From positions 28,098 through 92,097 of the forward strand of contig JAGVTU010000003.1 of NCBI GenBank assembly GCA_019136655.1: a stretch of DNA of 64,000 nt, given 5' to 3'. This document shows, piece by piece, positions 41,858-60,374 of the stretch (its first letter is position 1; each line of letters begins with the position of its first letter). This DNA comes from Bacteroidota bacterium (GTDB taxonomy: Bacteria; Bacteroidota; Bacteroidia; AKYH767-A; OLB10). The position numbers were made by a program, and so were the translations under genes. The notes beneath the pieces were generated by a model. The model saw only the letters and a program-made list of their open reading frames with translations. It was not told the origin of the DNA and did not search any database.

Positions 41858-42561
41858 AAGGTTTTTAAAATTGAAGTAATTACTTTTGAAACAGACTTTT
41901 CACCGGTGCGGTGCTGAAGTTCTTCAATGCCTGAGTGAAACACCAGATTACCTTCGCGCAGATACATTATTTCTGATACCAACTCATCCAACTCACTGAG
42001 TATATGCGAAGTGATGAGAATAATTTTTCCTTTGCTTCGTTCGTGTTTGATTTTTTCTTTCAGTATTTCAGAAGATAAAGGATCAAGGCCGGCAGTAGGT
42101 TCATCCAGAATAATTATTTCAGGAGAAAACAAAAATGCAAGACAGGCACTTACCTTTTGAGTGGTACCACCCGACAGTGTGCCCATACGTTTGGAGAATA
42201 AAGCTTTCAAGCCGAAAGCTTCCATCAGTTCAGTGTCAGCACTGCTCAAGGCTGTTTTTCTTATTTCAAGAATCATATCGAACACCTGCTGAATGGTCAT
42301 ATTCTGTGGATAACGACCTATCTGTGGCATATATCCAATGATGTTGCGGTATTTATAATCTCCTTTGATAGACTGATTGTTTATTTCAATCGTTCCCGAA
42401 TCCGGAATCAGCATTCCGAGCAGACATTTGATAAAAGTAGTTTTGCCGGAAGCGTTAGGACCCAGTAGTGCTACAGAATTACTTTTCTTTATCTGAACAG
42501 AAATATCCTTAAGCACATGCAGCTTACCGAATTTCTTGTTAACGTTTTTTATATCTATCAC
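41854..42561 (-). CDS. nosF: ABC transporter ATP-binding protein, NosF-like
   Basis: Walker A (GPNASGKTT), signature motif LSGGTTQK, Walker B (IILDEP). Sits between nosD and nosY. Confidence 0.8.
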   Translation of the reverse strand: MIDIKNVNKKFGKLHVLKDISVQIKKSNSVALLGPNASGKTTFIKCLLGMLIPDSGTIEINNQSIKGDYKYRNIIGYMPQIGRYPQNMTIQQVFDMILEIRKTALSSADTELMEAFGLKALFSKRMGTLSGGTTQKVSACLAFLFSPEIIILDEPTAGLDPLSSEILKEKIKHERSKGKIILITSHILSELDELVSEIMYLREGNLVFHSGIEELQHRTGEKSVSKVITSILKTL

Positions 42562-43859
42562 ATCTTTACCGGTTTTATCAGAGGAGTGTTGTCAACCAGG
42601 TTTTCAGGAGTGATACTTGGAATGATTTTTTCGCTCTGATCGAGTAGAAAAACTATAAAACTTCTCAAAAATACGGATGCTACGGGAATATTTTCAATGA
42701 CCATGCTGAATAAACTGATTGGGCGGTAAGGAACATCACCAACACCATCACGTTTTAAGTCATAACCATCATATTTATCCCAGAAGTTTCCGTTAAAATT
42801 ATTTAATACAAGGCTTCCATTGGTTGCAACATCAAATGTGTTTTCAAAAAAATTATTGTTGTTAACATTATTGTTATTACAACTTGCCTGTATGCGGATG
42901 GCATATCCATTTCTCAGAAATTTATTGTTGGTTACATCTATTCTGTTAGTACCTTCCAGATAAATACCAATGGTATTTTGTTCAAAAACATTATCTCTGA
43001 TGATACCGTCATTTATTTCTTTCAGTAGCAGCCCATATGTAGATTCACCCTGATTAAACAGAAAGTGATTCTTAAACATGTGGATATTATTTGAAAACAT
43101 TACTGCCACACCTGCACCATTTTTTTCGAATGTATTGTTAATGTATTCATCGTTGTTTGAAAACATAAAGTGTAACCCATAACGAATGTTACTCTTGCAA
43201 TAATTATCAGTGATGGTGGAATGTTGAACAAATTCAAAATAAATACCATCCCGATGACCCGTAATATTGTTATTTGCTATTTTAGCATAACTGTTCTTCC
43301 AGAGATGAATGCCATTTCCGGTTGTTTGTTCGTCATTACCCGGAACACCTCTTATCTGGTTGTATGTAATACTAAAATTGTCGCATCCTGCAATGTAAAT
43401 GGCAAAATGTGTATTAAGAATGGTATTTTTTGTAATTAAGAACTGACGGCTGTCAATTACTTTAATGGCGGCTAGATCTTTTAATGACGAAAATCCTGAA
43501 TACTGAAATGTAAGTCCTGAGACAACCACACCGGCAACATCTTTTATAGTAAGAATTTCATAAGTGCCCTCACCATCCAGCACCGGATTGTTTTTACCCA
43601 GAAGGGTAATTTTTTTCTTTATTACAATATTTTTTTCTTTGTAAATACCGCCATTTACCACAATGGTATCTCCATCTTTGGCAATGTCAACAGCATTTTT
43701 TATGGTGGTTATTTTATCACGGCCCGAAACGTTGATCACTTCTGCATGAAGTGGCAACATGAAAAATAAAAAAACAACAGAAAAGAAAAGACAGCGTATC
43801 CAACTAAGGAAATGCAGCCAAAACCTTTTCCCAATTACAAATTTCTCCACCGTATTCAT
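42558..43859 (-). CDS. nosD: nitrous oxide reductase maturation protein NosD (periplasmic right-handed beta-helix)
   Basis: Repeated parallel-beta-helix units (N.I....GI.L). Size and position match NosD. Confidence 0.8.
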   Translation of the reverse strand: MNTVEKFVIGKRFWLHFLSWIRCLFFSVVFLFFMLPLHAEVINVSGRDKITTIKNAVDIAKDGDTIVVNGGIYKEKNIVIKKKITLLGKNNPVLDGEGTYEILTIKDVAGVVVSGLTFQYSGFSSLKDLAAIKVIDSRQFLITKNTILNTHFAIYIAGCDNFSITYNQIRGVPGNDEQTTGNGIHLWKNSYAKIANNNITGHRDGIYFEFVQHSTITDNYCKSNIRYGLHFMFSNNDEYINNTFEKNGAGVAVMFSNNIHMFKNHFLFNQGESTYGLLLKEINDGIIRDNVFEQNTIGIYLEGTNRIDVTNNKFLRNGYAIRIQASCNNNNVNNNNFFENTFDVATNGSLVLNNFNGNFWDKYDGYDLKRDGVGDVPYRPISLFSMVIENIPVASVFLRSFIVFLLDQSEKIIPSITPENLVDNTPLIKPVKM

Positions 43860-44235
43860 TTAAAAGCTTCCGAGCGTTTTCTTCTGATGAAAAAGCAGCA
43901 AACCCACTATTCATCGGAGTGCGAATATCGGCACTTTTCAGAAAAACGGCATTTGCTGCTTCTAACAAATCAGTCTTATCAAAATAATTTACAACTAAAA
44001 CATGACTATACTGTACTTCTTTATTTTCAGGCAAAGCTTTCCACTGTATCATGCAGTTTACATCGTCAAACTTATAAATACGGCCTTTATTGGTAATCAA
44101 CTCTGCACCAAAACGTGTATCTGCTACAGGCATTTTACAGTGATGGCAACTGTCTTTTCCGGCAACAAGGGGTTCCGGTTTCTGCGCACAAGAGGTAAAT
44201 ACCAATACAAATAACAGCAAGAACAATTTTTTCAT
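43804..44235 (-). CDS. nosL: copper chaperone lipoprotein NosL
   Basis: Lipoprotein signal (FTSC). CHHCKMPV metal-binding motif. 143 aa, immediately upstream of nosD. Confidence 0.6.
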   Translation of the reverse strand: MKKLFLLLFVLVFTSCAQKPEPLVAGKDSCHHCKMPVADTRFGAELITNKGRIYKFDDVNCMIQWKALPENKEVQYSHVLVVNYFDKTDLLEAANAVFLKSADIRTPMNSGFAAFSSEENARKLLNEYGGEICNWEKVLAAFP

Positions 44236-44813
44236 TACGCTGCTTTATGTTTTCGCCATTCGATAAACCAAACAACAGCCGCAATGACTACAGAGCCTGC
44301 AACAATATAACCTCCCAAATCGGGCATTGAAAATGCATCAAAATTCAACAATTGTTTATGACCAATAATTGGAGGCTGATACGACATGCCCGGAACCTGA
44401 ATAGGAGCATCAGGGCTCAGGTTATGTCCATAGTCGTAAGTCCACTGATAAAAATCGTACATTGCTAAAACACCTCCTAATGCAGAAACAATCAGGTAGC
44501 TGAATAAGAGTTTGCGACTTCCGGTAATTGCAACCAGCAAACCATAAATAATGAATGCCGCTACAATATAAACAAGGTATGAAAATTCCGGAAACATATC
44601 AACACTTATTTTTTTCATTCCGATATAATGATTCAAACCATTGATGATATCAACATCACCGGTAAGTTTATTAAACCATATATTCATCATTAACCCTTCC
44701 GGATATTGTGGCGCGAACAAATCTATCCGCCAGATAGGAGTGAAATAAGAAATAATAATAGCTAAAGAACATAAAGCGATTATTACTCTGGAAAGGCCAC
44801 TTAGCTTTTGCAT
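44235..44813 (-). CDS. 4-TM membrane protein, NosB-like
   Basis: Integral membrane protein in the slot that NosB occupies in clade-II nos clusters. Confidence 0.4.
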   Translation of the reverse strand: MQKLSGLSRVIIALCSLAIIISYFTPIWRIDLFAPQYPEGLMMNIWFNKLTGDVDIINGLNHYIGMKKISVDMFPEFSYLVYIVAAFIIYGLLVAITGSRKLLFSYLIVSALGGVLAMYDFYQWTYDYGHNLSPDAPIQVPGMSYQPPIIGHKQLLNFDAFSMPDLGGYIVAGSVVIAAVVWFIEWRKHKAA

Positions 44814-44836
44814 ATAAAGGATGTTATTTTGAATTA

Positions 44837-45406
44837 TTAATTACCGGGAGGTAGCAATACGGCATCTACAACATGAATAATACCATTTGCTGCTGGAATA
44901 GTGGCTATTATATTTGCCTGATTATTTACCATTATCTTTCCATCTTTAACAGAAAGGCTAATGTTTTTTGAATTAGCCTGATTGATACTTTGTCCATCAG
45001 AGAACATTTCAGGCTTAAATACTCCAACAGAAACATGGTACTCCAATATATCCTGAAGCTTTGCTTTGTTTTCTGGTTTCATAAGGTCTTCCACAGTTCC
45101 TTTTGGTAATTTATTGAAAGCATCGTTGGTGGGTGCAAATACAGTAAATGGTCCTGCATTTGATAATACTGTTACCAGTTCAGCCTGTTTGAGCGCAGCT
45201 ACCAATGTTGAATGGTCAGCCGAACCAACGGCAATTTTAACAACATCTTTTTGAGAATCATTATCCTGAACCGCTTCTTGTCCTCCTGCAGGAGATTCCT
45301 GAGCAGTGGTGCTTTCACCGTTTGTTTTATTTTCAGCTGCGGGAGGGTTGCATGCATATACCAATGCTGCAATCATTACTAAATAAAATAATTTATACTT
45401 TCTCAT
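44837..45406 (-). CDS. fasciclin (FAS1) domain lipoprotein
   Basis: Lipoprotein signal (VYAC). FAS1 motifs TVFAPTNDAF and HVVDAVLLP. Confidence 0.75.
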   Translation of the reverse strand: MRKYKLFYLVMIAALVYACNPPAAENKTNGESTTAQESPAGGQEAVQDNDSQKDVVKIAVGSADHSTLVAALKQAELVTVLSNAGPFTVFAPTNDAFNKLPKGTVEDLMKPENKAKLQDILEYHVSVGVFKPEMFSDGQSINQANSKNISLSVKDGKIMVNNQANIIATIPAANGIIHVVDAVLLPPGN

Positions 45407-45469
45407 TGTGTTTTGGTATTATTCGCCTCATTGCTATGTTAACATAGCAATGAGGCGAAGGTTTATTAA

Positions 45470-47461
45470 TTATAGTTTATCATCTTCAGATTTTGGCTGA
45501 TTAGTTCCTGTGCTGAAATGTAAAGGAACATTGTTATTAGGAGCACTGATTCGGATATAACCTTGCATTTCCTGATGCAAAGCTGAACAGAAGTCGGTAC
45601 AATAAATTGGATAAACACCAACTTTCTCAGGCTTCCAAACAAGTGTTTGTGTTTCGCCCGGCATAATAAGCAATTCAGCATTGTTAGCACCCTTTACAGC
45701 AAACCCATGTGGTACGTCCCAATCTTGTTCCAAATTAGTAACGTGGAAGTAAACTACATCACCCAACTTCACGCCTTCAATGTTATCAGGAGTAAGATGT
45801 GAGCGTATTGCAGTCATATAAATATGCACTTCGTTGCCTTTACGTTCAACTTTGGCTTCTTTATCGCCCATGGTTACATAAGGATGTTTATTTTCTTCAA
45901 TTTTATAAAACTTAACAGAGTTCTTCGACACTATATCAGCAGGAATTGCTTCAGCGTAGTGAGGCTCGCCTATAGTTGGGAAGTCAAGTATCATTTTCAT
46001 TTTGTCACCACTGATATCATACAACTGAGCACTCTGACATAATTCAGGTCCTGTTGGCAGATAACGGTCTTTGGTAATTTTGTTGTAAGCTATTAGATAT
46101 TTACCCCATGGCTTTTTGGTAGGCCCACCGGGTACACTCAGGTGTCCAACAGAGTAATAAGTAGGAGCACGATCTAATACCTGAAGGTCGCTCACACGCC
46201 ACTTAACAACTTCAGAAGATACGAACATAGAAGTATAAGCATTACCGTTAGCATCAAACTCTGTGTGCAATGGTCCTAAGCCAGGTTTTTTAACTTCACC
46301 ATGTAATACGGCATCATATTTTAACACCGGAATACCCGCATAGTCACCTTCAAATGTTTTCTTATCTATAGCATCCAGCATTTTAGTGAATGAGAACACA
46401 GGAATAACTGCAGCAAGTTTTCCACTACCTACAATATATTCTCCTGTTGGGTCGGTATCACATCCATGCGGGTTTTTGGGACAAGGCATGAAATAAACCA
46501 TGTCAGGACAATCTTTTGGGTCGAGCATAATCACTTCTTTCTCCATTACTGAAGTTGCAGTATGAGTATGTTCGTCAAAGGTATTGTGAGCATAATTTAC
46601 ACTTTTCTTAATACCTTTTCCGGCTTTTACATATTCTTCTGCTTTTTTCCAGTTAACAGCCATAATGAAGTCTTTATCATTTTTGGCAGAGTTTACTTCA
46701 AGAAGTGTGTTTGCTCTTTCTGTATTATAACAACTTACAAAAAACCATCCGTGAGATTTTCCTTTTCCTGCTCTTGCCAGGTCAAAGTCAACACCCGGTA
46801 ACAGAATCTGAAATGCAAGGTTCATTTTACCTGTTTCTTTATCAACACCGATTAAGCTAATGGTAGCTTTAAAGTTATCTTTATACGTATTGATAGGCAC
46901 ATCATTATTATTATCAGACATTGGCACGGCAAAACGAGTTCCTGCAATAACATACTCTGAATTCTCTGTAATAAATGGAGAGGAGTGGTTACCTGCACTG
47001 TTAGGAATTTCAATAATTTCAGCCGTTTTGAAAGACTTCATATCAATTCTTGCAATACGCGGAGTATTGTTTCCGTTTCCAAAAGCCCATCTTCCATCAT
47101 GCACACCATCAGTCTCTGATAAGGCAATATGATGTAAGTCGTCCCAAGGAACAAATCCATGAGAAGTGTTGAGCATAGGCTTTGTTTCTTCGCTGTAACC
47201 GTAGCCTTTTTCTGGATCTACAGAAAATACAGGGATAACTCTAAAAAGCCTTCCTGAAGGAATACCATAAACTGACATTTGGCCGCTGAAACCTCCGGAA
47301 ACGAAGTTGTAAAACTCATCGTATTTTCCGGGAGCCACATAAACCTTTTGAGCAGCGTCTCCTGACGTAGTAGTACTTACGTTTTTGGGTTTACAGGAGA
47401 AGACGGTTGTTGCAAACGCTATTGCAAGCAGCGATAACGTTTTTAATTCTGATTGTCTCAT
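45470..47461 (-). CDS. nosZ: nitrous-oxide reductase NosZ, Sec-dependent (clade II)
   Basis: Sec/lipoprotein-type signal, not Tat. Seven-bladed propeller region with His-rich CuZ ligand segments. C-terminal cupredoxin CuA site CTDFCSALHQEM (C-x2-FC-x3-H-x2-M). Confidence 0.9.
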   Translation of the reverse strand: MRQSELKTLSLLAIAFATTVFSCKPKNVSTTTSGDAAQKVYVAPGKYDEFYNFVSGGFSGQMSVYGIPSGRLFRVIPVFSVDPEKGYGYSEETKPMLNTSHGFVPWDDLHHIALSETDGVHDGRWAFGNGNNTPRIARIDMKSFKTAEIIEIPNSAGNHSSPFITENSEYVIAGTRFAVPMSDNNNDVPINTYKDNFKATISLIGVDKETGKMNLAFQILLPGVDFDLARAGKGKSHGWFFVSCYNTERANTLLEVNSAKNDKDFIMAVNWKKAEEYVKAGKGIKKSVNYAHNTFDEHTHTATSVMEKEVIMLDPKDCPDMVYFMPCPKNPHGCDTDPTGEYIVGSGKLAAVIPVFSFTKMLDAIDKKTFEGDYAGIPVLKYDAVLHGEVKKPGLGPLHTEFDANGNAYTSMFVSSEVVKWRVSDLQVLDRAPTYYSVGHLSVPGGPTKKPWGKYLIAYNKITKDRYLPTGPELCQSAQLYDISGDKMKMILDFPTIGEPHYAEAIPADIVSKNSVKFYKIEENKHPYVTMGDKEAKVERKGNEVHIYMTAIRSHLTPDNIEGVKLGDVVYFHVTNLEQDWDVPHGFAVKGANNAELLIMPGETQTLVWKPEKVGVYPIYCTDFCSALHQEMQGYIRISAPNNNVPLHFSTGTNQPKSEDDKL

Positions 47462-52274: not shown

Positions 52275-52396
52275 GTTACGTGTTGTAATTAAATTAACTC
52301 GGCTGCAAAAGTAATAAAAACAAAATTCTCACAAAGGATTATCTCTTAATAACACTTACATTTGTACATAAAAAGCCATCCTGTAACAAAAAATCA

Positions 52397-53380
52397 ATGA
52401 GCAACGGAAAGTTTGTCATCTCTCTCGACTTTGAACTGATGTGGGGTGTAAGAGACAAAAAAAGCAAAACCACTTACGGTGAAAACATTCTTGGCGTACA
52501 TCAGGCATTGCCACTCATGCTCAAGATGTTTCGCGACTATGATATAAAAGCTACTTTTTCTACGGTTGGGTTTTTATTTTTCGAAACAAAAAAAGATTTA
52601 TTAAACAACCTACCCAATATTAAACCTGCATATAACGATTCCAACATCTCTCCCTACAATGGATATTTTGATGAGTTAGGCGATGATTATAAAAAAGACA
52701 AATACAATTTTGCTACAGACCTGCTTCGTGAAATTCAAAAATATCCTGAACAGGAAATAGGTACTCACACTTTTTCGCATTATTACTGCCTCGAGCCCGG
52801 CCAAACTCCTGAAGCTTTCAGAGATGATTTGAACAAAGCTATTGACATTGCCGAAAAACAAAACATCAGACTTACATCACTGGTGTTTCCGCGAAATCAG
52901 TTCAACAACCGGTACCTGAAAGTGTGCAGCGATTTGGGAATTGTATGTTACCGTGGCAATGAACACTCGTGGTTGTATGATGCAAAAAATGCAGCGAGCG
53001 AAAGTTATTTTAGAAGAGCACTGAGGCTGATGGATGCTTACGTCAACATCTCAGGGCACAATTGTTATTCGGATGAATATATGAGAAGCAAAACACCTTA
53101 CGATATTCCTTCGAGCAGATTCTTAAGACCTTTTTCCAAAAAGCTGGCTGCACTGGATGGTTTAAGACTGAAAAGAATTACTTCAGGTATGAGCTATGCC
53201 GCAAAAAACAATCTTACCTATCATTTGTGGTGGCATCCTCATAACTTTGGTACTGACCAAAAAGAAAACTTTAATTTTTTGGAAAAAATACTGAAACATT
53301 ATTCCAAATTAAATAAGGAATACAATTTGCAGAGCATCACTATGACAGAGCTTGCATTGCAACTGCGCAAACAGGTATAA
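52397..53380 (+). CDS. polysaccharide deacetylase-like protein (PEP-CTERM-locus-type subfamily resemblance)
   Basis: N-terminal SLDFELMWG resembles the D.ED(W/Y)F motif. Conserved His pairs (HTFSHYY; HLWWHPHNF). Followed immediately by a FemAB/GNAT-like gene. Confidence 0.5.
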   Translation: MSNGKFVISLDFELMWGVRDKKSKTTYGENILGVHQALPLMLKMFRDYDIKATFSTVGFLFFETKKDLLNNLPNIKPAYNDSNISPYNGYFDELGDDYKKDKYNFATDLLREIQKYPEQEIGTHTFSHYYCLEPGQTPEAFRDDLNKAIDIAEKQNIRLTSLVFPRNQFNNRYLKVCSDLGIVCYRGNEHSWLYDAKNAASESYFRRALRLMDAYVNISGHNCYSDEYMRSKTPYDIPSSRFLRPFSKKLAALDGLRLKRITSGMSYAAKNNLTYHLWWHPHNFGTDQKENFNFLEKILKHYSKLNKEYNLQSITMTELALQLRKQV

Positions 53381-53381
53381 C

Positions 53382-54320
53382 ATGAGTCAGGAAATAGAAT
53401 TTAGCAGAATAGAACCACAAGACACACCACGACTGCACGAACTGGCACTGAAGAATGATGGCAATGTTAGTCTCACTCCCGAAAACTTTGATCACTGGTA
53501 TTTTCGCAATCCTTCAAAATCTAATTCACTGTGGAAAGTAGTTTGCAATGGAGAAACGGAAGGATATGCCACCACCAATAATTTTAAATATGTGATTGAA
53601 GGAAAAGAATACCTCATCGCTTTACCTCAGAATGTGCTTACCTCTGAAAAAGTAAGAGGCGGAGGGCTGTTTGGCAAGCTATATTACCTCACCGAAAAAG
53701 ATAATCTGGAAGAAAAAGGCGTGGACATGTTTCTGACATCAACAGGTACAATGAGCACTGATATTTTTCTTAAAAAGTTTGGTTATGTCAGAGGATATTT
53801 GCCTTCTGTACTTGTGAAATTTGCAAGCCCGCGCGCATTGTTTTCACGTGGAAACTTTTCGCTCATTCAGGATGTAAACAGCTTGTCGTTTGAAACCTCT
53901 TATCAGATAGAAAATGCACGTATAAAAAACATGGAGTATCTGAAGTGGAGATATGCTCAGTGTAACAAAAAGGTTTTGCGTGTGATTTCTGTTTCAGTAA
54001 AAAATGAAATAGTAGGATATGCATTCTTAATAGTACGAAAAATGTATGGTTTACCAACTTTGATGTTAGCAGATATGATTTGCAAGCGCGAAGAAAACAT
54101 TGCTGATATTATTGATGCCTGTCATGTGTTTGCCACACGCAACATGTTTGCTGCCGTCATTATGCTTGAGTTGGATTATAACTGCAGACGCAGAGGTATA
54201 AACGTAACCATGAAAAACCATCTGAACTTTTTGTCGAAGGGAAAGACTCCTGAAGAAACGAAATGGCTGAGCACACGCAAGCTCAATTATTTTTTTGGCG
54301 ATCTGGACTTTTTCTGGTAG
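53382..54320 (+). CDS. FemAB-like / GNAT-fold acyltransferase (hypothetical)
   Basis: Two-lobed GNAT-like architecture of about 310 aa, similar to the FemAB-related proteins that pair with deacetylases in exopolysaccharide loci. The ATG at 53382 is preferred over the track start inside the upstream gene. Confidence 0.45.
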   Translation: MSQEIEFSRIEPQDTPRLHELALKNDGNVSLTPENFDHWYFRNPSKSNSLWKVVCNGETEGYATTNNFKYVIEGKEYLIALPQNVLTSEKVRGGGLFGKLYYLTEKDNLEEKGVDMFLTSTGTMSTDIFLKKFGYVRGYLPSVLVKFASPRALFSRGNFSLIQDVNSLSFETSYQIENARIKNMEYLKWRYAQCNKKVLRVISVSVKNEIVGYAFLIVRKMYGLPTLMLADMICKREENIADIIDACHVFATRNMFAAVIMLELDYNCRRRGINVTMKNHLNFLSKGKTPEETKWLSTRKLNYFFGDLDFFW

Positions 54321-54331
54321 TGAAATATTTT

Positions 54332-55444
54332 TTAAAACACATCCCAGTCGGTAAGTGTTGCCAGCCAGTTGTTTTTGTCTAAACAATCATCATCCTGATA
54401 TTTTAATTTTCGCACCAAAAGGTTTAATGGTCGCGGATTAAATCGCTCAGGAATACGAATGAAACCACTTCGTTTCTTTTTAAGAAATGTATGGCAGTTG
54501 AACGATGTAAAAATCATTGCAATATCTTTTCCGAAAATCTCTTTGGCATTTTTTCTGACAGTATGAATCAGCCTTATCATGTCATCTTCTTTTTCAAATG
54601 CAAAATCCATCATCAGCAAAGCCTGTGCGCCTAACATTTCATCAGTTTTAAAAATAGCCGAGGCTGTAATTTTGTTTCCTTCTCGCACTGAAATAATGCG
54701 GTGTGCAGCAGTTGGCTTAAGTTGATAACGCCATTTCATATAATCAAAATCTTTTTGCAGATGAAATGTAAAAGGTTTTGCAAAATGGTCGTAAAATTCA
54801 CTCAGAACTTCCGTTATTTTTTCTGAAATCAGAAGATTTTCTTTTGGAAAGGATTTAGCGCGTGCAAGACTACCATACAACCTGAGTATTGCACTTCCCA
54901 CAAAAACAAAAAGCGGATTTTTTGTTTTGGCTTTTATCAGCAATGAAGCTTTCACCGGCATAAGGTAAGTATCATACACTGCTACTTTGTGGTATCCGTT
55001 GTATTTGATGAAGGTATGTATGCTTTTGTTATTCGGAAAAGTATAAGCAATATCAATGTCGTGATTCAACATATCATCATTGGCATAGCATGCAAGCTGA
55101 CGAAACAATCCACGTCCGCGCTCGCTCGCACTCATTGCCACATCCTGCACCATGGCAAATTTTTTTTCCCAACCATGAATTCTGCCGTGATAAACAGGAA
55201 CATGATAATAACCTACAATTTTATCACTGTTGTTATAAGCCACATATATCAGTGACTGCTTTGCAGGCAAATCACGATATTGCCACTTCCAAAGTTTATC
55301 AGTGAATACATCAGCATTATGCGAATCGCCTTCGCGGAGGATAATTTTTATCTGCTCCAGCAAAGCTTCTGCATCATCGCCTACATCAATCCTGCAAAAC
55401 CTGTAAGCTGATGTTTGGGATTTCTCCTTTTCGCTCATACTCAT
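54332..55444 (-). CDS. FemAB-like / GNAT-fold acyltransferase (hypothetical), paralog-like partner of the second deacetylase
   Basis: GNAT-like core (YVAYNNSDKIVGYYHV...VQDVAMSASERGRGLFRQL). About 370 aa. Overlaps the 3' end of the upstream deacetylase gene. Confidence 0.45.
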   Translation of the reverse strand: MSMSEKEKSQTSAYRFCRIDVGDDAEALLEQIKIILREGDSHNADVFTDKLWKWQYRDLPAKQSLIYVAYNNSDKIVGYYHVPVYHGRIHGWEKKFAMVQDVAMSASERGRGLFRQLACYANDDMLNHDIDIAYTFPNNKSIHTFIKYNGYHKVAVYDTYLMPVKASLLIKAKTKNPLFVFVGSAILRLYGSLARAKSFPKENLLISEKITEVLSEFYDHFAKPFTFHLQKDFDYMKWRYQLKPTAAHRIISVREGNKITASAIFKTDEMLGAQALLMMDFAFEKEDDMIRLIHTVRKNAKEIFGKDIAMIFTSFNCHTFLKKKRSGFIRIPERFNPRPLNLLVRKLKYQDDDCLDKNNWLATLTDWDVF

Positions 55445-56246
55445 TTACAAGACTGGTTACGGTATCAAATTGAAGATGGGACAATAATTTTTGGGTGTTG
55501 CTATAAGTTTTTTTCAGATTGGCATAATGCGTGAGCATGGCTTTTCGCTCAAATTTTACATGCGGATGTTCAGGATCGTATTCCCATGGATGTATGTAAA
55601 ACATATTGGGAAGATTATTCTTTAAACGTTGCTTCATTCCATTCAGCGTAAAGGAATAAGGAAATATTCTAAAATACGCTCCACCAACAGCCCATTTTTT
55701 TCTTAGGAATGAAAAACGTGAAACTGGAAATTCTATCAGATTGTTTTCTTTAATTCTGAAAACAGAATCGGGACAGGAAGAAATACCATAACGCCATGTT
55801 TTTATGGGCGAAATGGAACAATCAATTTTATAACCTTCTTCGGCAAGAATGTCGAGTGCCCACAAACTTTTGGAAGTGATTGAAAAAAATGGAGAGCGGT
55901 GTGTGGTAACTTCTTTCCCTGTTAACTGCTCAATAATATTTTTCGTTTGTCTTATTTCATTACGGAATTCATCAGGAGTCTGGTTATAAACTTTTTCATG
56001 AGAGTAGCCGTGCGAACCCAGTTCATGGCCTGCTGCAGCAACTTCTTTTATCAAATGTGGATAAGTTTCTGCAATCCATCCCAGGGTAAAAAATGTTGCT
56101 TTGCTGTTGGAGGCGTTCAGAAGTTCCAGCACTCGGTAAAAACCTTTTTCTATTCTTCGTTCATATTTATGCCAGTCGCTGAAAGGAAGCTCAATGCCCT
56201 GATACCAGTCTTCAAAATCAACAGTGAAACTATTCTTGCTCATCAC
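55386..56246 (-). CDS. polysaccharide deacetylase (CE4/PEP-CTERM-locus type)
   Basis: FTVDFEDWYQ N-terminus. ATFFTLGWIAE...GHELGSHGYSH CE4 motifs. Confidence 0.7.
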   Translation of the reverse strand: MMSKNSFTVDFEDWYQGIELPFSDWHKYERRIEKGFYRVLELLNASNSKATFFTLGWIAETYPHLIKEVAAAGHELGSHGYSHEKVYNQTPDEFRNEIRQTKNIIEQLTGKEVTTHRSPFFSITSKSLWALDILAEEGYKIDCSISPIKTWRYGISSCPDSVFRIKENNLIEFPVSRFSFLRKKWAVGGAYFRIFPYSFTLNGMKQRLKNNLPNMFYIHPWEYDPEHPHVKFERKAMLTHYANLKKTYSNTQKLLSHLQFDTVTSLVNEYERKGEIPNISLQVLQD

Positions 56247-56422
56247 ATTTTATAAAAAAACAAACGTACAGCATTTATTTTATATTCAGAAGTGATAGAT
56301 CGAAACAATAGAAAATGTTGGGAGTGGTAATAATTTTTCGCGCTGCAAAATGGGCTTTAACCATAAATTAACCAAATTCGCACAATGAATTATTTTGTTT
56401 TACATCTGAAAAATTAAAATAT

Positions 56423-58963
56423 ATGAAACGGAGTAAATTTCTGACAGCGTTAGTTATCACAGCATTTGTTATTGCATCGTGCAAAAGCACCAAGGAAACA
56501 ACAGTGGAAACGCATTACCTTCCGGAGATAGAAGTAAAGCCTGCCTTTGAAGGTTATCAGGCTAGCACTACTATTCTTACTGATTTGCAACACATCAGGT
56601 TGCAGGTGCGCCCCGACTGGAGTAAGAAATATCTCTACGGTAAAATTGAGATTACCGCCAAACCGCATTTCAATCCGCAAAACACGCTTATACTTAATGC
56701 TCGTGGAATGGATATAAATGAAGTGGCGTTGATGACTTCCTCAGGAAGCAAAAACAAATTGACTTATGATTATCAAAACGACTCACTTACCATAACTCTC
56801 GACAAAACCTATAAGAATACAGAGCCTTATACAGTGTATATTGACTATGTAGCCAAGCCTGATGAATTGAAAAAAACAAGTGGAAGCGCAGCCATATCCA
56901 ACGACAAAGGACTTTATTTTATTAATGCAGATGGTAAAGACCCTAACAAACCTACGCAACTATGGACACAGGGCGAAACACAAAGTAACTCTGTTTGGTT
57001 TCCAACCATTGACAGGCCCAACCAGCGATTTACTCAGGAGATAAGCATCACTACTGAGGACAAATATGTTACTCTAAGCAACGGTGTGCTAACTTCATCC
57101 ATGAAAAATGCAGACGGCACACGCACCGACACATGGAAACAATCGCTCACTGCTGCACCTTATCTCACTATGATGGCTGTGGGTCCATTTAAAGTGGTTA
57201 AAGACAAATGGCGCAATTTGGAAGTGAACTACTACGTAGATGCCGAGTATGAACCTTATGCACGCGATATATTTGGCAATACTCCGGAAATGCTTGAGTT
57301 TTTTTCAAAGAAACTGGGAGTAGATTATCCCTGGGAAAAATTTTCGCAGGCTGTGGTGCACGATTATGTAAGCGGAGCCATGGAAAATACTACTGCCGTA
57401 ATTCACGGTGGACAACTGCAACGCACTTCACGCGAATTGCTTGATGCAAACAATGAAGAAACTATTTCGCATGAGTTGTTTCATCACTGGTTTGGCGACC
57501 TTGTTACATGCGAATCGTGGAGCAACATTCCGTTGAATGAATCATTTGCAACTTATGGTGAGTATTTGTGGAATGAATATAAATACGGACGCGATGAAGC
57601 GGATTACAGCGGTATGAATGACCTGAACCAGTACCTAGCTGAAGCACGATACAAGCAGGTTGATTTGATAAGGTATCATTACAATAATGAGTTGGAAATG
57701 TTTGATCGCCATAGCTACTCGAAAGGAGGTCGCATATTGCACATGCTTCGCAAATATGTTGGTGATGATGCTTTTTTTGCTTCGCTGAAGAAATATCTCA
57801 ACGATAATAAATTTCAGCCTGTGGAAGCACATGAACTGCGCCTTGCTTTTGAAGCAGTGACAGGAGAAGATTTAAACTGGTTTTTTAATGAGTGGTTTTT
57901 TGCAAAAGGTCATCCTGATATTGAAATAAGTTATCAGTGGAACGATACCATAAAAAAAGAGACCGTAATCATTGAGCAGAAACAAAGCTTGAAAGAAACT
58001 CCACTGTACAAACTTCCGCTGGCAATAGATATTTACGAAGGAGGAAAAGTAAGACGCGAAGAAGTAACATTGACACAGGAAAAAGAAATTTTATTTTTTG
58101 ACTGTAACACCAAACCGGATTTGGTAAATGTGGATGCTGAGAAACAATTGTTATGTGTTAAGAAAGATAATCATACAACAGAAGAGTGGATTTTTCAGTA
58201 CAATCATGCTCCATTGTTTTTAGACAGATATGAAGCCATATCCAAACTTGCCAAAGGTTATGAAGGAGGAAGCGCATCTGCAGCAACCCTGAAAAAAGCA
58301 TTGCTTGATAAACATTTTGCCATAAGAATACTTGCGCTTAAAAATATTGGTGCTGCTGCTAAAACAGACAGTACCATTAAACCAATGATAGCACGCCTGG
58401 TGCAACACGATAAAAAATCGGATGTACGCGAAGAAGCACTTGTAATGATGCATGAATTGTATGACGATGCATCGCTTGACAATGCTGCAATGAACGACTC
58501 GTCATATGCAGTGATGACAACGGCACTGGATTATTACATAGAAAAAAACCCAACGCAGATAACCATGCTGAAAAAATATGAGAGCGACAACAATAATACA
58601 TTGCGTTACGCTCTCAGTAATATTTATGCTGATTATGGTGATGATGAACAGTTTGATTTTATGAAATCGGCTTTGGAGAAAGCATCAGGATTTGGGAAAT
58701 TTGGACTGATACAAACCATGGGAAAATATCTGGAGCGCTGCTCACCTGATAAGATAGACGAAGGAGCGAAGTTGCTTGCTTCAACGGTACAAAACTCCGG
58801 CTCTAAATTTATGACCATGCAAATAAAGAGTACGTTTGGACGTGTTGGAAAATTTGTGGATGGAAAGGCGAAAGAGTTTGAAAACAAACCGGAGGCTGAA
58901 CAGTATAAAAAAATTTCTGCTTATATAAAAGAACAACTGGCTGAGATTAAAAAGAAAGAGTAA
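56423..58963 (+). CDS. M1 family metallopeptidase (aminopeptidase N-like) with C-terminal HEAT-like repeats
   Basis: Lipoprotein-type signal. GAMEN motif. HELFHHWFGD...(18 aa)...E zinc-binding HExxH-E. Confidence 0.85.
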   Translation: MKRSKFLTALVITAFVIASCKSTKETTVETHYLPEIEVKPAFEGYQASTTILTDLQHIRLQVRPDWSKKYLYGKIEITAKPHFNPQNTLILNARGMDINEVALMTSSGSKNKLTYDYQNDSLTITLDKTYKNTEPYTVYIDYVAKPDELKKTSGSAAISNDKGLYFINADGKDPNKPTQLWTQGETQSNSVWFPTIDRPNQRFTQEISITTEDKYVTLSNGVLTSSMKNADGTRTDTWKQSLTAAPYLTMMAVGPFKVVKDKWRNLEVNYYVDAEYEPYARDIFGNTPEMLEFFSKKLGVDYPWEKFSQAVVHDYVSGAMENTTAVIHGGQLQRTSRELLDANNEETISHELFHHWFGDLVTCESWSNIPLNESFATYGEYLWNEYKYGRDEADYSGMNDLNQYLAEARYKQVDLIRYHYNNELEMFDRHSYSKGGRILHMLRKYVGDDAFFASLKKYLNDNKFQPVEAHELRLAFEAVTGEDLNWFFNEWFFAKGHPDIEISYQWNDTIKKETVIIEQKQSLKETPLYKLPLAIDIYEGGKVRREEVTLTQEKEILFFDCNTKPDLVNVDAEKQLLCVKKDNHTTEEWIFQYNHAPLFLDRYEAISKLAKGYEGGSASAATLKKALLDKHFAIRILALKNIGAAAKTDSTIKPMIARLVQHDKKSDVREEALVMMHELYDDASLDNAAMNDSSYAVMTTALDYYIEKNPTQITMLKKYESDNNNTLRYALSNIYADYGDDEQFDFMKSALEKASGFGKFGLIQTMGKYLERCSPDKIDEGAKLLASTVQNSGSKFMTMQIKSTFGRVGKFVDGKAKEFENKPEAEQYKKISAYIKEQLAEIKKKE

Positions 58964-59251
58964 GCCGGTGATGCGTTAAAGGGAACGATTGTATGCTTAT
59001 TGTTATAGCATCAACAATCAATTGCATGTTAATATTTAACACCCGGCATCCCGCAGTATTACGCGACTGTTGGGTGGTTAATGTAATCCCTATATGATTA
59101 ACAATTTCAGTTTATAATCAGAGGTTCTTATGTTGTGTGAGTACTCTTGTCTCAGTTGAAAGGTTAGAGATACGCCCGTTAACCCACTCTGTTTTTTTAT
59201 AAATTTGCTTGCATAATATTGAACGGCAACACAGCGACAATAGCACTAGAA

Positions 59252-60169
59252 ATGAAAAAATATCCAATAACAACTTTCGTGATTTTTGCCATGTTAATAT
59301 CCTGGGCAGGTTGGATACCATTCGCTGCTACACAAGCCGGTTTATGGACTGTCAAAGTGCCTGCAGAGCTGGTTTGGCTTGCAGAATTTGGACCAACATT
59401 GTCAGCATTTATTGTTACATGGTTGGTTTATAGCAAAACAGGCATCAGTAATTTAATGAAGAGATTGTTGATGTGGAAGGTAAATTACAAATGGTATTTG
59501 TTGGCGATTTTTATAACTCCGGTTTTTATTTTGTTAAGCATTGGTATTGATATTTTATTTTTCGGAACAAAGTACGACTGGTCTTTATTGAATGATTGGG
59601 ACAAAAATTTCATTACTCGTACGGAAGCATTTACTCCTTCATTAGGATTGATTTCCGGAATTGTTTCGTTTATGAAAACAGGAACCCTTGCAACAGCATT
59701 GATGTTTCTGTTGCTTGCCCTCACCAATGGTGGATTATCAGAAGAAGTAGGATGGCGAGGTTTTGCTTTGAAGGAATTTCAGCGCAAGCCATATAATATA
59801 TTACTTACAAGTTTGTTTGTTGCAATTCTTTGGGCAGTATGGCATACTGGTACATTATTCTGGAAAACCATGATGACATCCAGCTTCAGCGAAGGACTGT
59901 TGTTTGCATTTACTTATTTGTTGCAATATCTGTTGTTAATATTTCCTCTATCGGTAATTTATACAGTTTTGGTCAATGGAACAGGAGGCAGTATTTTTCT
60001 TGCAATTATTCTGCATGCATTTTACAATATTTCAATTTCAGTTATTACGGCAGCTTTCCCTGGTTTTCCAATGTTAACATTTGTGATTTGTATGTTGGTG
60101 TTTTCCATCATCCTTATTGTAGCATTATGGAGAAACAATACATACAATAAGTGTTTACAGTCAGTATAA
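59252..60169 (+). CDS. CPBP family intramembrane metalloprotease (CAAX protease/Abi)
   Basis: EEVGWRGF motif 1, FWAVWH motif 2, and a conserved His in the HAFYN region. Polytopic. The ATG at 59252 is preferred over the TTG at 59219. Confidence 0.7.
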   Translation: MKKYPITTFVIFAMLISWAGWIPFAATQAGLWTVKVPAELVWLAEFGPTLSAFIVTWLVYSKTGISNLMKRLLMWKVNYKWYLLAIFITPVFILLSIGIDILFFGTKYDWSLLNDWDKNFITRTEAFTPSLGLISGIVSFMKTGTLATALMFLLLALTNGGLSEEVGWRGFALKEFQRKPYNILLTSLFVAILWAVWHTGTLFWKTMMTSSFSEGLLFAFTYLLQYLLLIFPLSVIYTVLVNGTGGSIFLAIILHAFYNISISVITAAFPGFPMLTFVICMLVFSIILIVALWRNNTYNKCLQSV

Positions 60170-60374
60170 TTAGAGTCTTATTATCATGGAAAGAACCAAC
60201 TGTATTTAACACAGGGTATCAAGCAGTATAGCTGAGTGATTAATGTATAGCCATAAATGGTGATGTTATTAATTACATTTTCTCTCCACCTGATATGGTG
60301 AACTATAAAAAAATAATGCCGGTTCGCTTCTGCGCACATTCTGCAATTTTATCTTTGCATTATTATTTTAGAAA

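What the first reader, a model, noticed from the sequence alone, without database searches (positions are those of the whole stretch)
52397..56246. Two convergent deacetylase + FemAB/GNAT-like gene pairs: a candidate sugar N-deacetylation / re-acylation module
The unit on the + strand (52397-54320) and the unit on the - strand (54332-56246) each pair a polysaccharide-deacetylase-family protein (D.E.W motif N-terminus) with an acyltransferase-fold protein of about 320-370 aa. They meet tail to tail with an 11-bp gap. Within each pair the genes overlap, by 29 nt and 59 nt if the track starts are used. Deacetylase plus FemAB-like pairs are known from PEP-CTERM/exopolysaccharide loci. There the inferred chemistry is exposure of a sugar amine followed by aminoacyl or acyl transfer. 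Here the module is duplicated and stands alone, without glycosyltransferases or exporters. It may therefore modify an existing envelope polymer such as peptidoglycan, LPS or a capsule, possibly with two different acyl or aminoacyl groups. I am not aware of a named system with this shape.
Basis: partly seen in the sequence, partly recalled or inferred. Interest (0 to 1): 0.5.

Follow-up and report, generated by a model that had tools for sequence, protein, structure and literature searches.

The report
Two sugar deacetylase–acyltransferase gene cassettes
Two independent two-gene cassettes sit tail to tail here, each pairing an enzyme that probably strips the acetyl group from an amino sugar with one that probably puts a different acyl group on, a modular and uncharacterised variant of a known way bacteria customise surface sugars.

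Summary
The four genes are real and convergent with an 11-bp gap. Two starts need correcting. B1 starts at ATG 53382, so it does not overlap A1. B2 starts at 55438, giving a 53-nt overlap with A2.

A1 and A2 are cytoplasmic CE4 deacetylases of the HpPgdA/PuuE-like subgroup. A2 just passes the TIGR03006 cut-off. B1 and B2 belong to one superfamily (hhalign 99.9%). They are tandem-GNAT proteins of the Eis/N-myristoyltransferase type, not FemAB-like.

The pairs are old paralogs (23–25% identity) and separate cassettes. A syntenic sister genome has A1–B1 but lacks A2–B2. An A2-like deacetylase lies next to the B2 homolog in 35 of 36 species' loci, often inside polysaccharide loci.

Partners swap. 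A1 homologs are followed by a formyltransferase in 42 of 67 metagenomic loci, by a B-type GNAT in 5, and in some by methyltransferases. B1-like proteins also pair with YdjC deacetylases. This supports "expose the sugar amine, then decorate it" on a cytoplasmic glycan precursor. Substrate and acyl donor are unknown.

A named precedent exists: VimE/VimA of the Wbp/Vim pathway, plus NodB/NodA. I rate this a new variant of a known kind, of moderate interest.

The parts
52357..52364 (+). Candidate Bacteroidota-type -7 promoter box (TACATTTG = TAnnTTTG), 33 nt upstream of the A1 start
   Evidence: Read directly and listed. The motif is not enriched window-wide (66 found, 88 expected), so this is only a candidate.
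52397..53380 (+). A1: cytoplasmic CE4-fold de-N-acetylase, 327 aa, divergent subfamily lacking the second Asp of the canonical DD motif
53382..54320 (+). B1: tandem-GNAT N-acyltransferase, 312 aa, short form of the B superfamily
   Evidence: ATG start 1 nt after the A1 stop. Homologs are 311-317 aa, and only 33 were found. hhalign against the B2 family gives 99.9%, E 6e-37, over 310 columns. Invariant R92/G95 (RGxGLF), K132, W189-R190-Y191, and a conserved C-terminal GDLDxFW. Public annotation is 'hypothetical protein'.
54321..54331 (.). 11-bp spacer between the convergent stop codons of B1 and B2
   Evidence: No terminator-like hairpin lies in the spacer. The only two terminator-like sites are one hairpin at 54267-54286, read on both strands, inside the 3' end of B1.
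54332..55438 (-). B2: tandem-GNAT N-acyltransferase, 368 aa, Eis/NMT-like, with a ~45-aa hydrophobic or amphipathic insertion between the two GNAT domains
55386..55438 (-). 53-nt out-of-frame overlap between the end of A2 and the start of B2 (translational coupling)
   Evidence: The identical 53-nt overlap occurs in L014, L016, L018 and L033. Overlaps of 32 nt occur in 12 loci and of 41 nt in 3 loci. Strand 1 of the B2 model lies within the overlap.
55386..56243 (-). A2: cytoplasmic CE4 de-N-acetylase with the DUF3473 C-terminal extension, 285 aa, TIGR03006 type
   Evidence: PF01522 E 3e-23, PF11959 E 9e-31, TIGR03006 278.6 bits against a cut-off of 276.2. Invariant D9, E11, H78, H82, R116, H218, with D12 nearly invariant. 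PDB sequence hits are to peptidoglycan deacetylases, HpPgdA and PuuE. No signal peptide.
56261..56268 (-). Candidate Bacteroidota-type -7 promoter box (TACGTTTG), 18 nt upstream of the A2 ATG
   Evidence: A candidate only.
54344..56355 (.). About 2.0-kb indel carrying the whole A2-B2 cassette and its upstream region, relative to a syntenic sister genome
   Evidence: blastn of the window against L007: window 48173-54343 matches L007 4769-10959 (77% identity), and window 56356-58821 matches L007 11128-13593 (79%). tblastn finds no trace of A2 or B2 in L006 or L007.

Best explanation
The region holds two separately inherited, translationally coupled two-gene cassettes: A1 then B1 on the + strand, and A2 then B2 on the - strand.

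Proposed mechanism:
1. In each cassette a soluble cytoplasmic CE4 metallo-deacetylase of the HpPgdA/PuuE-like subgroup removes the N-acetyl group from an amino sugar. The sugar is carried on a biosynthetic intermediate, either nucleotide-linked or undecaprenyl-phosphate-linked.
2. The partner, an Eis/N-myristoyltransferase-like tandem-GNAT enzyme with a GNAT-type (putative CoA-binding) loop, re-acylates the exposed amine from an acyl-CoA. The group transferred is something other than acetyl.
3. The net effect is an 'N-acetyl swap' that diversifies a surface glycan (O-antigen, capsule or exopolysaccharide) made by genes located elsewhere in this genome.
4. Having two cassettes implies two different sites or two different acyl groups.

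Shown here: the genes, their folds, the conserved catalytic residues, cytoplasmic location, conserved pairing, partner swapping and the independence of the two cassettes.

Inferred: the order of the two reactions, the identity of the sugar, and the acyl donor.
For: 1. Pairing. Of 36 species-representative loci with a B2 homolog, 33 have an A2-like deacetylase directly upstream on the same strand and 2 have one nearby. The remaining locus is cut by a contig end. Most pairs overlap by 29-53 nt or by 1-4 nt.

2. Non-homologous deacetylases pair with the same acyltransferase superfamily. These are A1-type CE4, A2-type CE4/DUF3473, and YdjC (L011 in Hymenobacter metallilatus, and L016). The coupling is therefore functional and not just inherited.

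3. The A1 deacetylase keeps 50-70% identity while its downstream partner changes. Among 67 metagenomic loci with room downstream, the partner is Formyl_trans_N in 42 and a B-family GNAT in 5. Others include SAM methyltransferases (L056, L060, L108) and a NodU-like carbamoyltransferase (L113). A constant amine-exposing enzyme with variable amine-decorating enzymes fits 'deacetylate, then decorate'. A methyl group cannot be a transient protecting group for a CE4 enzyme to remove.

4. The deacetylase gene comes first in every pair type.

5. Catalytic residues are conserved. A2 has D9-x-E11-D12, H78/H82, R116 and H218. A1 has D11-x-E13, H124/H128 and H276/H280. B1 and B2 have RGxGLF and a conserved C-terminus.

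7. Context elsewhere is often glycan biosynthesis. GT4, WecA-like, Wza, Wzx, DegT and AsnB/WbpS-like genes flank the homologs.

8. All four proteins are cytoplasmic.

9. Published precedent for the same logic exists in VimE/VimA (PMC7468200) and in NodB, on whose deacetylation the later Nod decorations depend (PMC5080398).
Against: - No biochemical data exist for any of the four families. Literature searches for DUF3473 and for TIGR03006 returned nothing relevant.
- In this window there are no glycosyltransferase, flippase or sugar-nucleotide genes nearby, so the substrate is unknown.
- A1 lacks the canonical metal-binding second Asp of CE4 motif 1. It could have a different chemistry, since PuuE-type relatives are metal-independent amidohydrolases.
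- The commonest partner of A1 is a formyltransferase. That is also the ArnA/ArnD combination, in which acylation precedes de-acylation.
- Only 11 of 122 neighbouring genes of the A2-B2 pairs are GT4 glycosyltransferases, and many loci look like housekeeping context.
- The exact four-gene arrangement is confined to one species-level clade.
Confidence: 0.55

Rival explanations
1. Arn-like transient protection. The acyltransferase (or formyltransferase) acts first on a nucleotide amino sugar. After transfer to the lipid carrier, the CE4 enzyme removes that group. The final glycan then carries a free, positively charged amine, as with ArnA formyltransferase and ArnD deformylase in lipid A Ara4N modification.
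Against: A1 homologs also pair with SAM methyltransferases, and a CE4 enzyme cannot remove a methyl group. The same highly conserved A1 would need to remove formyl in one genome and a GNAT-installed acyl group in another. No ArnC-like or ArnT-like transferase genes accompany the cassettes in the window. ArnD is far from the best structural match.
Confidence: 0.15
2. A Wbp/Vim-type amino-acid transfer. A2 acts like VimE, and B2 (and B1) act like VimA/FemAB. They would put an amino acid from aminoacyl-tRNA on the exposed amine, for example to build a linking sugar for type IX secretion cargo.
For: A2 passes the TIGR03006 cut-off. That deacetylase family accompanies TIGR03019/VimA-like genes (PMC7468200). 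WbpS-like AsnB genes lie near A2-B2 homologs in L003 and L005. The organism has type IX cargo: a CHU_C-domain protein at 27554-30838. Por_Secre_tail proteins make up 6 of 122 neighbours.
Against: B1, B2 and four homologs give no TIGR03019 hit, and no other FemAB-type NCBIfam hit, at E<=10; B1 and B2 also gave no PF13480 or PF02388 hit in the Pfam scan at E<=0.1. The fold search puts B2 with Eis and NMT, with no Fem protein in the top 60. Both keep the GNAT RGxGLF loop. From my own knowledge, Fem-type aminoacyl transferases lack this loop. No wbp genes are in the window.
Confidence: 0.08
3. Amino-sugar salvage or detoxification. The deacetylase and the GNAT act on free or imported amino sugars or chito-oligosaccharides, or on aminoglycoside-like compounds (an Eis-like resistance role), rather than on glycan biosynthetic intermediates.
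For: Structural neighbours of B2 include Eis aminoglycoside acetyltransferases and free-glucosamine N-acetyltransferases. The YdjC partner resembles chitin disaccharide deacetylase. The window context is housekeeping and not glycan biosynthesis.
Against: No transporters, glycosidases or kinases are linked to the pairs. Where context is informative it is biosynthetic: GTs, Wzx, Wza, DegT and AsnB. Deacetylation followed by re-acetylation would be futile in catabolism. Formyl- and methyl-transferase partners do not fit salvage.
Confidence: 0.1
4. Long-chain N-acylation. B1 or B2 transfers a fatty or hydroxy-fatty acyl chain, as N-myristoyltransferase or NodA does. The product would be a lipo-amino-sugar or lipo-oligosaccharide rather than a short-acyl glycan decoration.
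For: NMT scores as well as Eis in both fold searches. B2 has a hydrophobic insertion (residues ~164-194, highest KD 1.39) that could contact membrane or lipid. In L011 a MaoC-type (R)-enoyl-CoA hydratase lies directly upstream of the YdjC-B1-like pair.
Against: TM-scores of ~0.6 and 10-14% identity show only a shared tandem-GNAT architecture. Nothing tested here measures the size of the acyl pocket. This rival is a sub-variant of the best explanation and not exclusive of it.
Confidence: 0.1

Closest known systems
Wbp/Vim pathway of Porphyromonas gingivalis and Tannerella forsythia (VimE, VimA, WbpS)
   Same: A Bacteroidota pathway in which a CE4 deacetylase (VimE) is proposed to remove the 2-N-acetyl group of a di-N-acetyl uronic acid. 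An acyltransferase-fold protein (VimA) then loads the free amine, and an AsnB-like amidotransferase (WbpS) is often nearby (PMC7468200). A2 belongs to the deacetylase family (TIGR03006) that accompanies VimA-like genes. AsnB-like genes flank A2-B2 homologs in L003 and L005.
   Different: The partner here is not VimA/TIGR03019/FemAB-like, by sequence or by fold. It is an Eis/NMT-like tandem GNAT that keeps a GNAT-type RGxGLF loop, so acyl-CoA is the likely donor rather than an amino acid. No wbp, vimF or wbpS genes are in the window. There are two cassettes instead of one. Direct comparison with VimE and VimA sequences was not possible with these tools.
PEP-CTERM/XrtA exopolysaccharide loci: TIGR03006 deacetylase with TIGR03019 FemAB-family protein
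   Same: A2 scores 278.6 bits against TIGR03006, whose cut-off is 276.2. A deacetylase is paired with a two-domain acyltransferase-fold protein of about 350 aa.
   Different: B2 does not hit TIGR03019. No exosortase or PEP-CTERM genes are in the window. The carriers are mostly Bacteroidota, with some Acidobacteriota.
Nod factor tailoring: NodB, NodA, NodS, NodU
   Same: A cytoplasmic CE4 deacetylase exposes one sugar amine, which is then N-acylated (NodA) and N-methylated (NodS), with carbamoylation by NodU. All later additions depend on the mono-deacetylation (PMC5080398). The set of A1 partners (acyl-, formyl-, methyl- and carbamoyl-transferases) mirrors this toolkit.
   Different: A1 and A2 are not NodB orthologs. 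A2 scores 51.9 bits against the NodB model, whose cut-off is 240. B1 and B2 gave no match to a NodA family in the Pfam or NCBIfam scans. No chitin-oligosaccharide synthase (NodC) is linked.
Eis-family acetyltransferases and N-myristoyltransferase (tandem GNAT enzymes)
ArnA formyltransferase and ArnD deformylase (lipid A Ara4N pathway)
   Same: A formyl-THF-dependent sugar N-formyltransferase works with a CE4-fold de-N-acylase. This is the same combination as the commonest A1 cassette elsewhere.
   Different: The order of reactions is the opposite of the one favoured here. No ArnB-, ArnC- or ArnT-like genes are present. In this window the partner is a GNAT and not a formyltransferase.

Membership tests
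Carbohydrate esterase family 4 (NodB homology domain, PF01522) | Sequence match above the Pfam gathering score | tested here: met
   A1 scores 35 bits and A2 82.5 bits against a cut-off of 23.1.
Carbohydrate esterase family 4 (NodB homology domain, PF01522) | Distorted (beta/alpha) barrel fold | tested here: met
Carbohydrate esterase family 4 (NodB homology domain, PF01522) | Motif 2 His-x-x-x-His metal ligands and a motif 5 catalytic His | tested here: met
   A1 has H124, H128, H276 and H280 invariant. A2 has H78, H82 and H218 invariant.
Carbohydrate esterase family 4 (NodB homology domain, PF01522) | Motif 1 Asp-Asp pair (catalytic base plus metal ligand) | tested here: inconclusive
   A2 has D9-F-E11-D12, a plausible E-D variant, with D12 only nearly invariant. 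A1 has D11-F-E13-L14 and lacks the second acidic residue in every homolog. D11 may substitute, but this was not tested.
TIGR03006, XrtA-system polysaccharide deacetylase | Score above the curated equivalog cut-off | tested here: met
   A2 scores 278.6 bits against 276.2, a marginal pass. A1 scores 17.2 bits and is not a member.
TIGR03006, XrtA-system polysaccharide deacetylase | Genomic association with exosortase XrtA, PEP-CTERM proteins and a TIGR03019 FemAB partner | tested here: not met
   The partner is B2, which has no TIGR03019 hit at E<=10. No exosortase is among the window ORFs examined. The rest of the genome was not available.
FemAB / VimA family (PF02388, PF13480, TIGR03019) | Sequence match to a Fem-type profile | tested here: not met
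   B1 and B2 gave no such hit in Pfam (E<=0.1) or NCBIfam (E<=0.1). B1, B2 and four homologs gave none in NCBIfam at E<=10. Ten distant superfamily members gave none in Pfam at E<=0.01.
FemAB / VimA family (PF02388, PF13480, TIGR03019) | Closest structural neighbours are Fem-type aminoacyl transferases | tested here: not met
FemAB / VimA family (PF02388, PF13480, TIGR03019) | Aminoacyl-tRNA as donor | not testable with these tools
   Only indirect evidence is available. The retained RGxGLF GNAT-type loop argues for acyl-CoA.
GNAT superfamily, tandem-GNAT (Eis/NMT-like) architecture | N-terminal GNAT domain with a Q/R-x-x-G-x-G/A-type CoA loop | tested here: met
   B2 hits PF13527 at E 4e-9. 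R107-G108 in B2 and R92/G95 in B1 are invariant.
GNAT superfamily, tandem-GNAT (Eis/NMT-like) architecture | Second GNAT-like domain packed against the first | tested here: met
   The B2 model has two alpha/beta domains. 282-310 residues align to Eis-like and NMT chains. PF00583 hits the C-terminal half of distant members. B1 aligns end to end with B2.
GNAT superfamily, tandem-GNAT (Eis/NMT-like) architecture | Eis-specific third domain (SCP2-type C-terminal domain, as I recall it) | tested here: not met
GNAT superfamily, tandem-GNAT (Eis/NMT-like) architecture | C-terminal carboxylate placed in the active site | not testable with these tools
   The C-terminal residues are conserved: B2 has W365, D366 and V367 invariant before the terminal F368, and B1 has G-D-L-D-x-F-W. 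Model coordinates could not be inspected.
Wbp/Vim linking-sugar pathway | VimE-type CE4 next to a VimA-type transferase, with wbpA/B/E/D and often wbpS | tested here: inconclusive
   A2 is of the deacetylase type associated with VimA-like genes (PMC7468200). AsnB-like genes occur in homolog loci. The transferase is a different family, and no wbp genes were seen among the window ORFs scanned.
NodB/NodA | NodB equivalog score and a NodA-family partner | tested here: not met
   A2 scores 51.9 bits against the NodB cut-off of 240. B1 and B2 gave no match to a NodA family in either the Pfam or the NCBIfam scan.

The most novel reading that the evidence does not exclude
These cassettes are examples of a widespread, unrecognised 'N-acetyl swap' toolkit. 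Interchangeable cytoplasmic de-N-acetylases (two CE4 subfamilies and YdjC) are each translationally coupled to an interchangeable amine-decorating enzyme: a new Eis/NMT-like tandem-GNAT clade, formyltransferases or methyltransferases. Together they set the N-substituent of amino sugars in Bacteroidota surface glycans. The B family would then be a new class of sugar N-acyltransferase, possibly using hydroxy-acyl or longer acyl-CoA donors. The A2-B2 type could be an acyl-CoA-dependent counterpart of VimE/VimA that tailors the sugar anchoring type IX secretion cargo in environmental Bacteroidota.
Probability: 0.3. Interest if true: 0.6.

Novelty: new variant of a known kind. Interest (0 to 1): 0.45.

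Why it matters
N-acyl groups on amino sugars (acetyl, formyl, hydroxybutyryl, aminoacyl) shape the antigenicity, charge and phage or immune recognition of bacterial surface glycans. For 2-amino sugars that start out N-acetylated, the enzymes that exchange the acetyl group are, to my knowledge, mostly unknown outside NodB/NodA, LpxC/LpxD and the recently proposed VimE/VimA step.

This analysis gives a testable rule: a cytoplasmic deacetylase immediately followed by an amine-modifying enzyme. It also assigns a likely role to several poorly annotated families. These are DUF3473 deacetylases, a 327-aa CE4 subfamily with more than 8000 homologs, and a tandem-GNAT superfamily with 2669 cluster representatives at E<=1e-10. 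B1 is currently annotated as 'hypothetical protein'.

The rule points to cultured strains where it could be tested by glycan chemistry: Hymenobacter metallilatus, Chryseobacterium turcicum and Flavobacterium terrisoli. For this window itself the finding is not a new principle, and the substrate remains unknown.

Tried and rejected
1. FemAB membership of B1 and B2. Rejected on profile searches and fold searches.

2. Recent tandem or inverted duplication. Rejected. A1 and A2 are 23% identical and B1 and B2 are 25% identical. The two pairs have different distributions, and the sister genome lacks one pair.

3. A1 as the ortholog of the extra deacetylase next to A2-B2 in the nearest B2-carrying genome (L001). 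Rejected, because there is no significant similarity. That locus carries a third deacetylase type paired with a formyltransferase.

4. Mobile-element insertion signature for the A2-B2 indel. No convincing target duplication or terminal repeats were found. The only candidate is a 30-nt, 70%-identical AT-rich direct repeat at 54276-54305 and 56379-56408. About 18 nt past the B1 stop are still similar in the sister genome, so gain versus loss is unresolved. GC content is the same as the surroundings.

5. Sigma-70 promoter and intrinsic terminator scans. Neither exceeded shuffled expectation. TAnnTTTG boxes lie upstream of both cassettes, but the motif is not enriched in the window.

6. Literature searches. 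DUF3473 returned nothing, TIGR03006 returned one irrelevant paper, and deacetylase + formyltransferase + Flavobacterium returned nothing. The Bordetella wbmS paper held no functional information.

8. Direct comparison with P. gingivalis VimA and VimE.

Full report
**What is in the sequence**

- A1 is at 52397-53380 on the + strand (327 aa).
- B1 follows on the same strand.
- B2 and A2 lie on the - strand.
- The stop codons of B1 and B2 are 11 bp apart, at 54321-54331.

Two starts need correction.
- All B1 homologs are 311-317 aa and begin at the ATG at 53382, one base after the A1 stop. The reported 29-nt overlap comes from an upstream TTG and is not real.
- B2 homologs begin at the position of the second ATG, 55438. 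This gives a 53-nt out-of-frame overlap with A2.
- The same 53-nt overlap is found in L014, L016, L018 and L033. Related clades have 32-nt overlaps (12 loci) or 41-nt overlaps (3 loci).
- The first beta strand of the B2 model (residues 13-17) is encoded upstream of the A2 stop codon, so the overlap is genuine.
- A2 most likely starts at ATG 56243.

The exact proteins are in public MAG records. They are annotated 'polysaccharide deacetylase family protein', 'hypothetical protein' (B1) and 'DUF3473 domain-containing protein'. The source clade includes Bacteroidetes bacterium OLB10 and CHB6.

**The deacetylases**

A2 matches PF01522 (E 3e-23) and DUF3473 (E 9e-31). It just passes the curated cut-off of TIGR03006, 'XrtA system polysaccharide deacetylase', at 278.6 bits against 276.2. 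In an alignment of 25 homologs, D9, E11, H78, H82, R116 and H218 are invariant and D12 is nearly invariant. This is a complete CE4-type catalytic set with an E-D variant of motif 1.

A1 is a much more divergent CE4 protein (PF01522 E 1.6e-8).
- It belongs to a very large family. More than 8000 homologs were scored. The 120 best hits are 63-83% identical and come from Flavobacterium, Chryseobacterium, Saprospiraceae and Daejeonella, among others.
- Its AlphaFold model (pLDDT 88.7) is a CE4 barrel.
- D11, E13, H124, H128, H276 and H280 are invariant. The position of the canonical second Asp is Leu in the whole family.

A1 and A2 are only 23% identical. Neither has a signal peptide or a hydrophobic segment, so both act in the cytoplasm.

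**The acyltransferases**

B2 has an N-terminal Acetyltransf_9 domain (E 4e-9). B1 gives only a faint hit. The two are 25% identical over 266 residues (E 5e-16). Their family profiles align end to end with 99.9% probability (E 6e-37).

Shared conserved features are:
- an RGxGLF loop, the GNAT-type segment that binds CoA in canonical GNATs;
- a conserved Lys;
- a W-R motif;
- the extreme C-terminus, 'DWDVF' in B2 and 'GDLDxFW' in B1.

**Two cassettes, not one duplicated module**

A sister genome (L006/L007) is 77-79% identical at the DNA level and syntenic from the M28 peptidase to gltX. It has A1-B1 in the same place but nothing corresponding to window 54344-56355, and no trace of A2 or B2. Boundary alignments do not settle whether this is a gain or a loss, and no insertion signature was found.

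The exact four-gene arrangement recurs only in contigs of the same species-level clade: L015, L050, and consecutive accession numbers in several MAGs.

Other double cassettes do occur:
- A2-B2-YdjC-B1-like in tandem in L016;
- a third CE4 type plus a formyltransferase directly upstream of A2-B2 in L001/L014;
- two deacetylase-formyltransferase pairs in L088.

**Conserved pairing and partner swapping**

In one genome per species, 36 loci encode a B2 relative.
- In 33 of them an A2-like deacetylase lies directly upstream on the same strand.
- In 2 it lies nearby.
- One locus is cut by a contig end.

B1-like proteins pair with A1 in L006-L010, L053 and L058. They also pair with a YdjC-family deacetylase, a different deacetylase family, in Hymenobacter metallilatus (L011) and in L016.

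A1 homologs, in turn, keep 50-70% identity while the gene immediately downstream changes. Among 67 metagenomic loci with room downstream:
- 42 have a Formyl_trans_N protein related to sugar N-formyltransferases, PurN and ArnA;
- 5 have a B-family GNAT;
- 20 have none of the tested partners.

I scanned the downstream gene in eight of those 20 loci:
- SAM methyltransferases in three (L056, L060, L108);
- a NodU-like carbamoyltransferase in one (L113);
- a UDP-galactopyranose mutase in one (L074);
- unrelated housekeeping genes in the other three.

In every pair type the deacetylase gene comes first.

**Genomic context**

In this window the neighbours are housekeeping genes and a nos cluster. Elsewhere the pairs often sit in glycan loci:
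- GT4 glycosyltransferases, Wza, RmlC, a WecA-like transferase and an AsnB-like amidotransferase in L003;
- DegT aminotransferases, GT2, GT4 and AsnB in L005;
- Wzx and several glycosyltransferases in L011 and L013.

I took a census of 122 genes flanking the A2-B2 pairs in 27 loci, up to the three nearest on each side. Glycosyltransferase group 1 was the commonest family (11 genes). WecA-like transferases and NAD-dependent epimerases followed with 5 each, then Asn_synthase with 3. Many neighbours were unrelated to glycans.

**Mechanism**

The simplest account is a two-step exchange on a cytoplasmic glycan intermediate. The deacetylase exposes an amine, and the coupled enzyme decorates it. In this window the decorating enzyme is a tandem GNAT, presumably using an acyl-CoA other than acetyl-CoA.

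Several lines of evidence point the same way:
- a constant deacetylase with variable amine-directed partners;
- three unrelated deacetylase types serving one acyltransferase superfamily;
- the invariable gene order;
- translational coupling;
- the cytoplasmic location of all four proteins.

The reaction order, the sugar and the acyl donor are inferred and not shown.

The main rival is the ArnA/ArnD logic, in which acylation comes first and de-acylation later. It is weakened by the methyltransferase partners and by the need for one conserved A1 enzyme to remove different groups in different genomes. It cannot be excluded for the formyltransferase cassettes.

A Fem/VimA-type amino-acid transfer is disfavoured by the fold and by the retained GNAT-type loop. 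A salvage or resistance role is disfavoured by the context.

**Comparison with what is known**

The closest named system is the Wbp/Vim pathway of P. gingivalis and T. forsythia.
- VimE, a CE4 protein, is proposed to remove the 2-N-acetyl group of a di-N-acetyl uronic acid.
- VimA, which matches TIGR03019, adds serine or glycine.
- WbpS, an AsnB-like amidotransferase, forms the uronamide.
- The product is the sugar to which type IX secretion cargo is attached.
- The authors also noted vimA-like genes next to polysaccharide deacetylases and AsnB-like genes in PEP-CTERM loci (PMC7468200).

A2 is of the deacetylase type found in such loci. Its partner here belongs to a different family.

Nod factor tailoring follows the same logic. 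[quoted passage not shown]

I found no publication on the A1, A2 (DUF3473) or B families themselves.

**Verdict**

- The deacetylate-then-reacylate idea is the best explanation, at about 0.55 confidence.
- The acyltransferases are Eis/NMT-like and not FemAB-like.
- The two pairs are independent cassettes and not a duplication.
- The likely target is a cytoplasmic precursor and not a mature wall polymer.
- A named precedent exists.

This is a new variant of a known kind. Its interest is moderate and lies mainly in the modular partner-swapping pattern and in giving testable roles to large uncharacterised families.

Noticed in passing
L012 8001-9744; L013 8001-9747; L052-L128 (metagenome loci): The A1-type deacetylase is most often followed by a ~256-aa Formyl_trans_N protein that overlaps or abuts it: 42 of 67 loci with room downstream. 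These include Chryseobacterium turcicum and Flavobacterium terrisoli. The formyltransferase is closest to sugar N-formyltransferases, PurN and ArnA. This pair seems uncharacterised and may make N-formyl hexosamines.
   Followed up: partly
L056 1256-2056; L060 1456-2244; L108 3909-4796; L113 1635-3350: Some A1 homologs are followed by class I SAM methyltransferases (L060 also gives a weak NodS hit). One is followed by a NodU-like carbamoyltransferase. Together these echo the Nod-factor tailoring set.
   Followed up: partly
L011 8708-10954 (Hymenobacter metallilatus): A MaoC-type (R)-specific enoyl-CoA hydratase gene lies directly upstream of a YdjC deacetylase and B1-like GNAT pair inside an exopolysaccharide locus. 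This hints that the acyl donor could be a 3-hydroxyacyl-CoA.
   Followed up: no
L016 7456-11195: A MAG (Bacteroidia SMAG_U7891) carries A2-like, B2-like, YdjC and B1-like genes in one co-directional run. This is a second kind of double cassette.
   Followed up: partly
L088 512-2351 and 5001-6490: Two different deacetylase-formyltransferase pairs lie about 2.6 kb apart on one metagenomic contig.
   Followed up: no
L015 about 1338-1341 (Bacteroidetes bacterium OLB10): The B2 ortholog in the OLB10 MAG is split by a frameshift near residue 241. This is either a pseudogene or an assembly error.
   Followed up: no
window 54881-54950 (B2 residues ~164-194): B2 has a ~45-residue insertion relative to B1 between the two GNAT domains. 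It is predicted helical with lower confidence and is the most hydrophobic stretch of the protein (KD 1.39). It may be a membrane- or lipid-contact element.
   Followed up: no
window 41090-47461: A nitrous oxide reductase cluster lies on the - strand. It includes a NosZ-type protein with the nos_propeller domain (45470-47461) and NosD (42558-43859). The syntenic sister locus also has NosL, cytochrome c and fasciclin genes.
   Followed up: partly
window 58822-60338 (ORF 59219-60169): A 316-aa multi-pass membrane ORF between the M1 peptidase and gltX has no counterpart in the syntenic sister genome L007. By eye it looks like a CPBP-type intramembrane protease, but this was not tested. It is a second small indel close to the A2-B2 one.
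   Followed up: no
window 21458-23584 and 27554-30838: There is a YfhO-like membrane protein gene and a 1094-aa CHU_C-domain (type IX secretion cargo) protein gene. These are the only envelope- or glycan-related genes among the ten large ORFs scanned in the rest of the window. Both lie more than 20 kb from the cassettes.
   Followed up: no
window 54276-54305 and 56379-56408: A 30-nt AT-rich direct repeat (70% identity) lies near both edges of the A2-B2 indel. It is probably chance, but it is the only candidate boundary repeat.
   Followed up: no
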